Part shown: positions 51,001-54,000 of the stretch, piece after piece
Numbering within the stretch: position 1 is the first letter of the stretch
How the letters are laid out: every line of letters begins with the position of its first letter
Source: Rickettsiales bacterium
GTDB taxonomy: Bacteria; Pseudomonadota; Alphaproteobacteria; Rickettsiales; JABSSG01
Direction: 5' to 3'
DNA length: 64,000 nucleotides
Assembly: GCA_013214525.1 (NCBI GenBank)
Contig: JABSSG010000024.1
Coordinates: forward strand, 44,754-108,753
Made by a program: the position numbers

Positions 51001-54000
51001 ATATCTCTTATCCCCACTATACGATCTCCAGGAATGGGTGAACAACATGGAGCGAGATGAATAGTAATGCCAGGAGTTACCCCTTTTATTGGTATAGAAT
51101 TATCGCCAGCTAATTTCTTTTTCTTACGTAACTTAAAAAAAGAAAATGCTTGTAAAAGAAACGTTCTTTTTGAGCGGATTTTTTTAAGTTTTAAATCTGG
51201 ATAAACCTGAACAAATACATCTTGTGAACATATAACACCTTCTCCTACAGCACAAACCAATTGCTCAATTGTTTTTTTATTAAAAAAAAGTAATACAGAC
51301 TCTAAACGCCTGAGAGAAAACTCTTTATTGCATTTCACAAATGTTTGTGTCAGAAGTGCTTTACCAAGTTCAAATATCTCTTTATATTTAGATGCTTTAA
51401 TTGATTTTCTAATTTCATTCAATGCCTTACTCGTAATAGCAATCTGTTCCCAATACGGCAAAGGCTTATTATCAGCAGATGTTAATATTTCTACTTGATC
51501 ACCATTTTCTAATTTTGCTTTAAGAGGTGCAAGTCTGTGATTAATCTTCACTCCTACACATGAATTTCCTAAATCAGAATGTACTGCATATGCAAAGTCT
51601 ATTGCTGATGCTCCCCTAGGCAAAGCAATTACAGACCCCTTTGGAGTAAAACAAAATATTTGATTCGCATATATTTCTAGTTGTGTGTTCTTAACTAATT
51701 CTGAAATATCATTTGTTGTGTTAGACAAATGAACCAAGCTTTTAATCCAATTAGAACCAATTTTATCAATATCTTTATATTTTTGTTTATATGTCCAATG
51801 TGCAGCTATACCGTTTTCAGCAATATCCTGCATTTCAGCAGTTCGTATCTGTACTTCTATCCTATGTCTTTCTGGCCCTATAATTACAGTATGAATGGAT
51901 TTATAACCATTTTGTTTAGGTAGACTTATAAAATCTTTAAACTTACTTGGTACAATATGATAATTGCTATGAATTATCCCTAAAGCTTTATAACAAGAAA
52001 GAACATCGGGAACAATTACTCTGAATGCCATTACATCAGACAGCTGTTCAAAGCTTATGTTTTTCCTCTTCATCTTTTCCCAAATTGAAAAAGGAGTTTT
52101 CTCTCTACCTACTATTACTGCATCAACGCCATGCAATTTAATTATCTCATTAAGAGTATTGGCAATTTTTTGTACTAACTCAATGCTATCTCCTTTCTTC
52201 AATAAACTTAATCTCTTCAAAATAGAATCTCTACTAGCAGGATATAAAGTCGCAAAAGAAAGATCTTGTAGCTGAGTTTTAATTTGATGCATGCCTACTC
52301 TTTCTGCAAGTGGTGCATATATCTCCATAGTTTCTAGTGCTATTCTACCCCTCTTTTCTACAGAAGCTAAATAAGGTAGCGTTTGCATATTATGTAATCT
52401 GTCCGCCAATTTTATAATTAATACTCTGATATCTTTTGATATCGCAATAATTAATTTTTTAAAATTTTCCGCTTGTGAAATGCTTTCGCTCTTCCCTTCT
52501 ATCTTAGTAAGCTTTGTTACACCATCTACTAGAGAGGCAACTTTAGATCCAAATAATTCTCTGACTTCCTCGAGCGAAATTTTTGTATCCTCTACTACAT
52601 CATGAAGTAAGGCCACAATTATTGTAAGACTGTCCATAGAAAGAGAAGCTAAAATACTAGCCACTGCTAAAGGATGGGTAAAAAAATCTTCTCCAGATGC
52701 TCGCTTTTGACCAGCATGAGCTTTCTTAGCAAATTCAATTGCAAGAGGAAGTTTCAATAAATACTTCTTGAACCTGTCATACGACTGGACTTGACTTAAT
52801 AAATCACCTTCACTTATTGCTAAGGAATTCTCTGACAGTTTATTGACAGCCTCTATCATTTATTTCATATGGTTTATAGCCTACCGAAAGCTACACTAAT
52901 CATACTTGAAAATCTAAGATTTTAAAAAAGAAAATAATATCAAATTTAAAAATAGGTATTTTAGGTATGATTATTATATACTTATTACAATTGAAACTAG
53001 TTTTTCTTGCTGTCATCTTCTTTAGAAGTATCTTCTTCTACAGAATTTACTTCTAAACCACTAATATCAGAAGATTGATCTTCTTCATCAACCGATATAA
53101 ATTCATTTTCAATAAGTTCATCAGAAAGAGAACTAGATTCTTTTAATTCATCTTCTGATGCATTTTCTTCTAATTGTTTCTTATCATCTTCTATAACATC
53201 ATCACTTGGCAAACATAATTGCAAACTTTGAATATAAGATCTTTTTAAAGTAGGTATATCAACATGTTCACTTGCAATCTCCCTAAGTGCTATAACAGCA
53301 TTTTTATCATTTCGTTTATCTACTGGAGTCGCTGCCCCCTTTGATATTTGCTTTGCTCTATAACTTGCAAGAATTGATAATTCAAATTTATTATTTAACT
53401 TTTTAAAACAATCCTCTACTGTAGTTCTAGCCATAATTTTCTTAGATTAATTAAACATTTATCTGATAAATATATATGATTTATATAGATATTAAAAGGA
53501 TTTATTGCCAATATCTAATATTTTACTATACTAATCGTACTTGAAAAGCCCGAGATTTTAAAAAAGAAAATGGAAGTAATATCAAGCTTAAAAATTCGCA
53601 AATATCATTGATATTTAAGACATTTTTTAGCGAAGATAGTAGTTTCATTTTCAAATTTAAAAATCGGTATTTTCATGTATGATTAGTATATAGAGTTTCC
53701 AAGTATGATTAGTATATACATCCATTGGCCATTTTGTATAAAAAGATGTCCTTATTGTAACTTTAATACTTACGTACTTAAATCTTTAGATACACAACAA
53801 TGGCTAGAATCGTACATAAAAGAACTACAATATTTCAGAAGAGTCTTCCAAGATAAAAAAATTAAATCTATTTTTTTAGGAGGTGGCACTCCTTCACTAA
53901 TGCCAACCAAAATTATTGAGAAAATTCTTAATTATATTGGGAGTTTAGCTCAAATAGACAATAATACAGAAATAACAATAGAGGTAAACCCAACCTCAGC

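What the first reader, a model, noticed from the sequence alone, without database searches (positions are those of the whole stretch)
53684..53716. A duplicated repeat terminus supplies the start codon and first four codons of hemW
hemW begins ATG ATT AGT ATA (MISI). This is exactly the right-terminus string ATGATTAGTATA of the palindromic element, present here as an extra terminus 7 bp after full copy J. An in-frame stop (TAG 53684-53686) sits inside copy J itself, so no upstream start is available. The radical-SAM motif starts only 11 residues in. The native 5' end of an essential-looking gene therefore seems to have been replaced by repeat sequence. The repeat must also carry whatever RBS or promoter is now used.
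Basis: seen in the sequence. Interest (0 to 1): 0.6.

Follow-up and report, generated by a model that had tools for sequence, protein, structure and literature searches.

The report
Repeat end supplies hemW start codon
In this Rickettsiales genome the start codon and next three codons of the heme-chaperone gene hemW lie inside a leftover end of a small palindromic mobile repeat, but that repeat DNA happens to encode the same conserved amino acids as the original gene, so this is a tidy new example of a known phenomenon, not a new mechanism.

Summary
A complete ~164-bp palindromic element (J, 53527-53690) sits between rpoZ and hemW. It is followed within 0-2 nt by a 24-26-nt extra family terminus (53691/53693-53716), which contains the hemW ATG (53705) and codons 2-4. 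The in-frame TAG at 53684-53686 is real, and no other start codon is available.

- **The residues are ancestral.** I-S-I-Y is conserved in orthologues. Both closest relatives read ...ISIYIHWPFC.
- **The DNA was exchanged.** All six ISIY orthologues checked encode the Ser as TCN. The window uses the repeat's AGT.
- **The relative's upstream sequence has no counterpart.** The closest relative keeps rpoZ|hemW synteny with a 111-nt spacer and no element. Its last ~17 spacer nt, its ATG and five leader codons are missing from the window.
- **The leader is dispensable.** Leaders vary from 1 to 23 residues across orthologues.
- **No RBS need come from the repeat.** Only 5 of 45 window genes have an SD-like motif.

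Two other family termini in the window form gene 3' ends.

Repeats fused to gene 5' ends are already described (BOX/RUP, BRE, REP2, RPE). I rate this a new member of a known kind, of modest interest.

How the terminus arrived is unresolved: either a remnant of a second copy or a 26-bp duplication of J's end.

The parts
52997..53434 (-). rpoZ (RNA polymerase omega), the divergent upstream neighbour of hemW
   Evidence: TIGR00690 rpoZ, 49 bits against a cutoff of 23.6. The same neighbour is present in the closest relative L001.
53435..53526 (.). Ancestral rpoZ-hemW spacer retained left of the element. It is a possible site of the native hemW promoter.
   Evidence: The aligned stretch 53400-53526, which runs into the rpoZ 5' end, is 81% identical to the L001 spacer up to TTTTAC.
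53505..53532 (+). Promoter-like site TTGCCA-16-TATACT. The -35 lies in the old spacer and the -10 is formed by J's left tip.
   Evidence: 10 of 12 consensus match. The region as a whole is not enriched over shuffles (5 found, 3.9 expected), so this is a lead only.
53527..53690 (.). Full palindromic MITE-like element, copy J (~164 bp). Its terminal inverted repeats are TATACTAATCGTAC... and ...GTATGATTAGTATA.
   Evidence: Inverted arms of 35 nt at 80% complementarity. Hairpin -70 kcal/mol, z -7.9. It is 87% identical to copy 12349-12512 and 75-86% identical to four further copies in the direct orientation.
53679..53693 (+). Mini-ORF ATG ATT AGT ATA TAG (MISI*) in J's right arm. It is out of frame with hemW.
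   Evidence: Read directly and listed. Its ATG is predicted to be fully paired in the J stem.
53684..53686 (+). TAG in the hemW frame, which closes off any upstream start
53691..53716 (+). Extra (solo) family terminus TAGAGTTTCCAAGTATGATTAGTATA. It contains the hemW ATG and codons 2-4.
   Evidence: Leave-out PWM score of 28.1 bits. The subterminal 12 nt alone rank in the top 0.18% of window positions. It is 90% complementary to J's left arm over 21 nt (I3).
53705..54862 (+). hemW (radical-SAM heme chaperone), 385 aa, apparently intact
   Evidence: TIGR00539 HemW, 289 bits against a cutoff of 205. Residues 3-370 align to profile positions 2-360 of 361. It is identical to an NCBI MAG protein annotated as HemW.

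Best explanation
hemW in this Rickettsiales MAG has a repeat-derived 5' end. A roughly 24-26-nt terminus of the genome's ~164-bp palindromic MITE-like family lies directly after a complete copy (J). It now provides the only usable start codon and the codons for I2, S3 and most or all of I4.

Compared with the closest relative, two things have no counterpart in the window: the last part of the spacer, and the start codon with its short, non-conserved leader. They are presumed lost. The native I-S-I codons were exchanged en bloc for the terminus sequence ATT AGT ATA.

The terminus, read outward from its ATG, happens to encode Met-Ile-Ser-Ile. The product is therefore M-ISIYIHWPFC, which keeps every conserved residue of the first beta-strand and radical-SAM motif. 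That explains why the event was tolerated in a gene that otherwise looks intact.

**Shown:** the repeat identity of the DNA, the ancestral nature of the residues, the codon-family switch, the absence of any counterpart to the relative's upstream sequence, and the absence of any other start.

**Inferred:** how the terminus got there. One route is a remnant of a second copy K, which either inserted at a TA in codon 4 or was joined by a short-homology deletion, with J arriving at the adjacent TA. The other route is a 26-bp tandem duplication of J's own end after J's terminus had already fused to hemW. I hold these two routes about equally likely.

Also inferred: transcription most likely still starts in the conserved spacer left of J and reads through the element, and translation starts without a Shine-Dalgarno sequence, as for most genes here.
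For: **Terminus identity**
- Exact 16-mer duplication. The family 16-mer is strongly over-represented, with 12 found against 0.18 expected.
- The PWM built from 14 other termini scores this site 28.1 bits, and the subterminal part is also family-like.
- Alignment of copies with their flanks shows J is complete and the extra terminus lies outside it.

**Ancestral residues**
- Among 118 orthologues, x1 is L or I in 112, x2 is S in 80 and x3 is I in 87.
- ISI is the second commonest tripeptide, and it is present in both nearest relatives, at 65% and 60% identity.

**DNA exchange**
- The window has ATT AGT ATA TAC. Six orthologues have ATT TCG/TCA/TCT ATT/ATC/ATA TAT/TAC, so none of the six uses AGY.

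**Upstream sequence without a counterpart**
- L001 has rpoZ, a 111-nt spacer and hemW, with no element. The spacer alignment stops at TTTTAC. L001's CAGCAACCATTGTAATA ATG TCT GCA CGC TCT TTT has no counterpart in the window.
- No family copy was found in L001 or L002.

**Leader dispensable**
- Leader lengths range from 1 to 23 residues with a median of 4.5. One orthologue starts M-LSLY.

**Gene intact**
- TIGR00539 scores above its cutoff, and the profile starts at residue 3.

**Context**
- Two other family termini form gene 3' ends in the same window.
- The literature describes repeats fused to 5' ends of genes and repeats carrying an ATG (PMC3184786).
Against: - Only one genome carries this allele. 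The nearest relatives are only 65% and 60% identical, so the immediate pre-insertion sequence is not observed.
- There is no expression or proteomic evidence for the start site.
- That a terminus should encode exactly the ancestral I-S-I is a noticeable coincidence. Given ISI, the chance of native ATT AGT ATA from window codon usage is about 0.04. This hints at a homology-guided event that I cannot demonstrate.
- The two candidate routes cannot be separated. In the 26-nt register there are 4 mismatches, all outside the 16-nt tip. That fits a different copy, but it also fits a duplication followed by constrained divergence.
- The sequence is a metagenome-assembled genome, and read-level support across the repeat junction was not available.
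Confidence: 0.8

Rival explanations
1. Coincidence. The hemW 5' end is native DNA that merely resembles the family terminus, and element J simply inserted upstream of it.
For: ISIY is ancestral. ATT AGT ATA is a legitimate AT-rich encoding of ISI, with a probability of about 0.04 from window codon usage. One orthologue has Met directly before the tripeptide.
Against: - The match covers 16 of 16 nt including GT ATG upstream of codon 2. Family-like sequence continues for another 8-10 nt.
- None of six relatives uses AGT at this Ser.
- Only 1 of 118 orthologues has Met adjacent to the tripeptide.
- Taken together these make chance negligible.
Confidence: 0.03
2. Sub-scenario: a 26-bp tandem duplication. 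J's own right terminus was first fused to hemW and supplied its start. Slippage then duplicated the last 26 bp. This moved the working ATG out of the long hairpin and left the inner copy to decay into the MISI* mini-ORF.
For: - Head-to-tail period of 26 nt with 22 of 26 identity in the register 53670/53696.
- In a modelled construct with J's terminus fused directly to hemW, the start region is more buried. Mean P(unpaired) is 0.16 against 0.32, and the ATG is 0.00 against 0.06.
Against: - The differences cluster in the subterminal part, with none in the 16-nt tip. If differences fell uniformly, the probability would be about 0.014 in the 53670/53696 register (hand calculation from the sequence).
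- The subterminal bases of the extra terminus resemble other family members as much as they resemble J.
- A second locus (copy E plus a terminus at 31476-31501) shows a full copy beside a clearly different solo terminus.
- The accessibility gain is small, and the ATG is still predicted to be paired.
Confidence: 0.35
3. Assembly artefact. The MAG assembler joined or collapsed sequence at the shared repeat terminus, so the real genome has a different hemW 5' end.
For: The source is a MAG. The junction lies in multi-copy repeat sequence.
Against: - rpoZ|hemW adjacency and the spacer are conserved in the independent relative L001.
- The ORF is intact and starts exactly at the beginning of the HemW profile.
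- The shared exact sequence is only 16-23 nt, shorter than the final k-mers assemblers normally use (background knowledge).
- Copies are only about 75-87% identical to each other in the direct orientation.
Confidence: 0.05
4. The terminus is an exapted, portable expression module. J's terminus would provide an outward -10 (TATGAT), and the next terminus would provide the ATG, so the doubled terminus is functional rather than debris.
For: TTTAAA-16-TATGAT at 53656-53683 would place a transcription start about 15 nt before the ATG. Repeats carrying a promoter, RBS and ATG are known, for example Neisseria REP2 and the Borrelia IR (PMC3184786).
Against: - The promoter match is 9 of 12, and such sites are as frequent in shuffles.
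- Of about 24 termini in the window, only this one heads a long ORF.
- A conserved native spacer remains upstream.
Confidence: 0.1

Closest known systems
Rickettsia palindromic elements (RPE; Ogata et al. 2000, as summarised in PMC1779305 and PMC3184786)
   Same: Both are short (100-150 bp for RPE, ~164 bp here) palindromic, non-coding, multi-copy repeats in a Rickettsiales genome. Both lie in intergenic regions and intrude into protein-coding genes without destroying them.
   Different: RPEs are best known for whole-element, in-frame insertions inside genes. Here only a 24-26-nt terminus is in the gene, and it forms the start. The host is not a Rickettsia species; HemW is about 50% identical to Rickettsia HemW.
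Repeat fusions to gene 5' ends: pneumococcal BOX/RUP/SPRITE (Croucher et al. 2011) and the Betaproteobacterial repeat element BRE (Hot et al. 2011), as reviewed in PMC3184786
   Same: A small interspersed repeat contributes the 5'-terminal codons of a chromosomal gene.
   Different: Those cases usually extend or alter the ORF. Here the repeat-encoded residues reproduce the ancestral conserved residues, and the net change is the loss of a short leader.
Neisseria REP2 and Borrelia plasmid inverted-repeat sequences (PMC3184786, section 12)
   Same: A repeat sequence located immediately upstream of genes that contains an ATG start codon.
   Different: REP2 is a dedicated upstream cassette with a promoter, RBS and ATG at many genes. 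Here only 1 of about 24 termini heads a gene, there is no SD motif, and the promoter-like hexamers are not significant.
Solo terminal inverted repeats and decayed MITE fragments
   Same: A terminal fragment lacking the rest of the element lies next to or nested with other copies. The window holds several other solo or partial termini (28825-28850, 31476-31501, 39397-39422, 19936-19961).
   Different: This fragment has been recruited as coding sequence, including the initiation codon.

Membership tests
MITE-like palindromic repeat family (RPE-like) | Terminal inverted repeats and whole-element hairpin potential | tested here: met
   Arms of 35-56 nt at 75-91% complementarity in J, B1, E, F and G. 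The J fold gives z = -7.9.
MITE-like palindromic repeat family (RPE-like) | Multiple dispersed copies of similar length with no coding capacity | tested here: met
   Seven near-full copies of about 127-187 bp, plus mini-elements and fragments, in 64 kb. No ORF of 60 aa or more lies within them.
MITE-like palindromic repeat family (RPE-like) | Target-site duplication flanking each copy | tested here: inconclusive
   Every tip ends ...GTA|TA and starts TA|TAC.... This fits a TA duplication, but it also fits a TIR that simply includes TA. No longer duplication is seen.
MITE-like palindromic repeat family (RPE-like) | Sequence homology to a described RPE family or to a parent transposon | not tested
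   No RPE consensus was available to the tools, and Rfam gave no match. The genome-collection and metagenome pattern scans found only chance hits.
HemW (radical-SAM heme chaperone, TIGR00539) | Whole-protein score above the curated cutoff, with full-length profile coverage | tested here: met
   289.3 bits against a cutoff of 205.4. Residues 3-370 align to profile positions 2-360 of 361.
HemW (radical-SAM heme chaperone, TIGR00539) | N-terminal YIHxPFC and CxxxCxxC cluster, plus the HemN_C domain | tested here: met
   MISIYIHWPFCIKRCPYC. PF04055 and PF06969 are recorded for the identical protein P0001.
Repeat-donated gene 5' end | The start codon lies within sequence demonstrably belonging to the repeat family | tested here: met
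Repeat-donated gene 5' end | Orthologues without the repeat have different DNA at the corresponding position | tested here: met
   Six orthologues use TCN for the Ser and carry their own leaders. L001 has no element in the conserved spacer.
Repeat-donated gene 5' end | Translation actually initiates at the repeat-borne ATG | not testable with these tools
   This is argued only by exclusion: the in-frame TAG at 53684, the absence of any other canonical start, and the conserved motif starting at residue 2.

The most novel reading that the evidence does not exclude
The doubled terminus is not debris but a selected solution. After a palindromic element captured the hemW start, the start codon would have been locked in a roughly 160-nt hairpin stem. 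Adding a second, unpaired terminus restored an accessible initiation site. The inner terminus would then supply an outward -10 (TATGAT) and a four-codon uORF that ends 12 nt before the real ATG. The family's termini would thus act as portable start modules.
Probability: 0.08. Interest if true: 0.55.

Novelty: new member of a known kind. Interest (0 to 1): 0.3.

Why it matters
This is a clean, datable-looking example of how selfish palindromic repeats in a reduced intracellular genome can overwrite the 5' end of a housekeeping gene without harm. The overwritten DNA happens to re-encode the conserved residues, so the change is invisible at the protein level and detectable only through a Ser codon-family switch.

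It also carries a warning for annotation. Start codons next to repeats may be repeat-borne, and identity of N-terminal residues does not prove ancestry of the DNA.

It does not reveal a new mechanism. The same family also forms two gene 3' ends in this window, which fits the known behaviour of RPE, BOX, BRE and other MITE-like repeats.

Tried and rejected
1. **Genome-collection scan** with the conserved internal pattern AGAAAATNNANNTANTATCAAG. BLAST of J against all fetched loci gave only 25-33-nt matches forced by the pattern. The Rickettsia vulgarisii hit lies in an unrelated coding region.
2. **Metagenome scan** with the 19-nt left terminus. It gave one hit, L110, which is an unrelated higher-GC contig and a chance match.
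3. **Rfam** on 53400-53800 at E<=1 found nothing.
4. **Promoter and terminator scan**. The number of promoter-like sites equals the shuffle expectation, and there are no terminator-like sites. I therefore make no claim that the repeat carries the promoter.
5. **RNA accessibility modelling**. It showed only a small difference between the real and the modelled single-terminus arrangement, which is not decisive.
6. **Target-site duplication of the 23-nt repeat.** Rejected, because the sequence left of J is the ancestral spacer and not a copy of the repeat.
7. **Self-targeting transposition** (insertion next to TIR-like native DNA). Considered but rejected as the sole cause, because native DNA matching 16 of 16 nt plus subterminal bases is too improbable.
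8. **Alternative start codons.** None exists between the TAG and the ATG. Downstream starts would delete the conserved YIHWPFC strand.
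Full report
**What is at the site**

The window is AT-rich (30.6% GC). It comes from a Rickettsiales metagenome-assembled genome. The 385-aa product of 53705..54862 is identical to an NCBI protein named [quoted passage not shown] on a 307-kb contig.

The local gene order is spoT/relA (50652-52859, minus strand), rpoZ (52997-53434, minus strand) and hemW (53705-54862, plus strand).

Between rpoZ and hemW lies a complete palindromic element, copy J (53527-53690):
- Its terminal inverted repeats are TATACTAATCGTAC... 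and ...GTATGATTAGTATA.
- It folds into a long hairpin of -70 kcal/mol, z = -7.9 against dinucleotide shuffles.
- BLAST of J against the window finds near-full copies at 12349-12512 (87%), 11873-12033, 36737-36899, 31293-31456, 32810-32996 and 20051-20177.
- It also finds mini-elements made of two termini only (33035-33105, 52892-52980, 22494-22614) and scattered fragments.

**Checking the observation**

The 16-mer GTATGATTAGTATATA occurs exactly at 53677-53692 (J's right tip) and again at 53703-53718. With up to 2 mismatches it occurs 12 times in the window, against 0.18 expected.

The repeat finder reports a 23-nt direct repeat, 53670-53692 versus 53696-53718, with 21 of 23 identical.

The hemW ATG at 53705 and the codons ATT AGT ATA lie inside the second copy. 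TAG 53684-53686 is in frame. The six codons between it and the ATG contain no ATG, GTG or TTG. The first Cys of the radical-SAM CxxxCxxC motif is residue 11.

The only correction concerns the "7 bp" gap, which depends on how the terminus is delimited. A position weight matrix built from 14 other termini, omitting both copies at this locus, scores 53691-53716 at 28.1 bits, above J's own right arm at 27.1. The 12 subterminal bases alone fall in the top 0.18% of all window positions. The extra terminus is thus 24-26 nt long and abuts J with only TA between them.

**Is the hemW N-terminus novel? No.**

The 120 best homologues were inspected. Nearly all carry the pattern [L/I]-[S/A/H]-[I/V/L]-Y-I-H-W-P-F-C. 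Among the 118 with the motif:
- The first position is L or I in 112.
- The second position is S in 80.
- The third position is I in 87.
- ISI is the second commonest tripeptide, found in 23.

The two closest relatives read MSARSF-ISIYIHWPFC (P0002, 65% identity) and MLLNDKNTSNSS-ISIYIHWPFC (P0003, 60% identity).

The part upstream of the tripeptide is unconserved. It varies from 1 to 23 residues with a median of 4.5, and one orthologue starts M-LSLY. The window's M-ISIY is therefore the shortest natural class, and no conserved residue has been changed.

The TIGR00539 HemW profile aligns from profile position 2 at residue 3 and scores 289 bits against a cutoff of 205. The gene looks intact.

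**Was the DNA replaced? Yes, as far as comparison allows.**

I fetched the DNA of six orthologues that have ISIY. All six encode the Ser with TCN (TCG, TCA, TCT, TCA, TCA, TCA). The window alone has AGT, which is the repeat's own sequence. TCN and AGY cannot interconvert by a single substitution without passing through a non-Ser codon.

The closest relative (L001) keeps the rpoZ|hemW arrangement with a 111-nt spacer and no element. Its spacer aligns at 81% identity with the window sequence left of J, and the alignment stops at TTTTAC. L001's next 35 nt, CAGCAACCATTGTAATA ATG TCT GCA CGC TCT TTT, have no counterpart in the window. In their place stand J and the extra terminus.

No family copy is detectable in L001 or L002.

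A chance resemblance of native DNA to the terminus can be set aside for four reasons:
- The probability of ATT AGT ATA given ISI is about 0.04 from the window's own codon usage.
- Met directly precedes the tripeptide in only 1 of 118 orthologues.
- The match continues upstream through GT and the subterminal bases.
- The 16-mer is exact.

**How it most likely came about (inferred)**

All termini end ...GTA-TA. This is compatible with TA target duplication, but it is not proof. I hold two routes about equally likely.

*Route A: remnant of a second copy, K.* K either inserted at the TA of the third-position codon (NTA), or was joined to hemW by a deletion between its tip and a similar native sequence. 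K's body and the native start were then lost, and J sits at the adjacent TA.
- In favour: the differences between the extra terminus and J's right arm lie only in the subterminal part, while the 16-nt tip is identical.
- In favour: a second locus shows the same architecture with clearly different sequences. Full copy E (31293-31456) is followed after 20 nt by a degenerate solo terminus at 31476-31501.

*Route B: duplication of J's own end.* J's own terminus first fused to hemW, and a 26-bp tandem duplication followed.
- In favour: the head-to-tail period of 26 nt with 22 of 26 identity.
- Weakly in favour: a modelled single-terminus construct buries the start region more deeply in the hairpin. 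Mean unpaired probability is 0.16 against 0.32.

Either way, the outcome was tolerated because the terminus read outward from its ATG encodes M-I-S-I.

**Expression signals**

- Only 5 of 45 window genes have an SD-like 4-mer between -22 and -4. hemW has none, and neither does the relative's hemW.
- The conserved spacer left of J could still hold the native promoter.
- A hybrid site TTGCCA-16-TATACT (53505-53532) uses J's left tip as its -10. A weaker site, TTTAAA-16-TATGAT, lies in J's right arm. Such sites are no more frequent here than in shuffles.
- In the minimum-free-energy fold, J pairs with itself and the extra terminus stays outside the long stem. The ATG is still predicted to pair locally.

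**Wider pattern in the window**

Of about 24 recognisable termini, only this one heads a long ORF. Two others form gene 3' ends:
- The left tip of a partial copy at 28825-28850 supplies the last five codons and the TGA of a sodium/solute symporter gene (27478..28842).
- The degenerate terminus at 31476-31501 lies in the last ~14 codons of xseA, beyond the end of the TIGR00237 profile at residue 433 of 445.

Full copies typically sit within 2-20 nt of neighbouring gene ends.

**Comparison with what is known**

Short palindromic repeats that enter coding sequence without destroying it are the hallmark of Rickettsia palindromic elements (PMC1779305).

A review of bacterial small repeats (PMC3184786) records three relevant things:
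- In-frame fusions of repeats inside genes.
- Extensions of 3' ends and of 5' ends (BOX/RUP, BRE).
- Repeats that carry a promoter, RBS and ATG (Neisseria REP2, Borrelia IR).

This case works like those and belongs to that kind. Its particular feature is that the donated codons reproduce the ancestral residues. Homology of this family to a named RPE family could not be tested.

**Limits**

- Only one genome carries the allele, and the nearest relatives are distant.
- Both public-collection scans for the repeat family returned only chance matches.
- No read-level or expression data were available.

**Verdict**

This is a new member of a known kind, with interest of about 0.3.

Noticed in passing
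window 28825-28850 (gene 27478..28842, plus strand): The left terminus of a partial family copy (TACATCAATCGTACTTGAAAAATGTG) overlaps the 3' end of a sodium/solute symporter gene. It supplies the gene's last five codons (Y I N R T) and its TGA stop.
   Followed up: partly
window 31476-31501 (xseA 31459..32796, minus strand), next to full copy E at 31293-31456: A degenerate solo terminus lies 20 nt beyond a full copy and inside the last ~14 codons of xseA. The XseA profile ends at residue 433 of 445, so the tail looks repeat-derived. This is a second case of a full copy with an extra terminus beside it.
   Followed up: partly
window 11873-12512: Two full copies (11873-12033 and 12349-12512) bracket a 92-aa ORF (12065..12343). 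The ORF gives only a weak, truncated match to the HI0074 nucleotidyltransferase substrate-binding subunit. It may be a toxin-antitoxin-type gene remnant framed by repeats.
   Followed up: partly
window 33035-33105, 52892-52980, 22494-22614: These are mini-elements consisting essentially of two termini with the interior deleted (about 71-121 nt). The one at 52892-52980 fills the spoT-rpoZ spacer, just 550 nt from copy J.
   Followed up: no
window 53679-53693: J's right arm carries a four-codon mini-ORF, ATG ATT AGT ATA TAG (MISI*). It is identical to the first four hemW codons and ends 12 nt before the hemW ATG. Its ATG is predicted to be fully paired in the hairpin.
   Followed up: partly
whole window (45 long ORFs): Only 5 of 45 genes have a Shine-Dalgarno-like 4-mer upstream, so this organism appears to initiate translation largely without SD pairing. 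Full repeat copies usually lie within 2-20 nt of neighbouring gene ends.
   Followed up: partly
L002 2955-2971: In the second-closest relative, hemW overlaps the 3' end of obgE by 17 nt. It follows rplU-rpmA-obgE rather than rpoZ, so the rpoZ|hemW synteny is not universal in this clade.
   Followed up: no
window 54849-55943; L001 1620-2725: The gene downstream of hemW overlaps it by 14 nt and has no NCBIfam hit. In L001 the corresponding stretch is split into two genes (1620-2159 and 2162-2725), and the second one matches PF02636, the Methyltransf_28 family.
   Followed up: no
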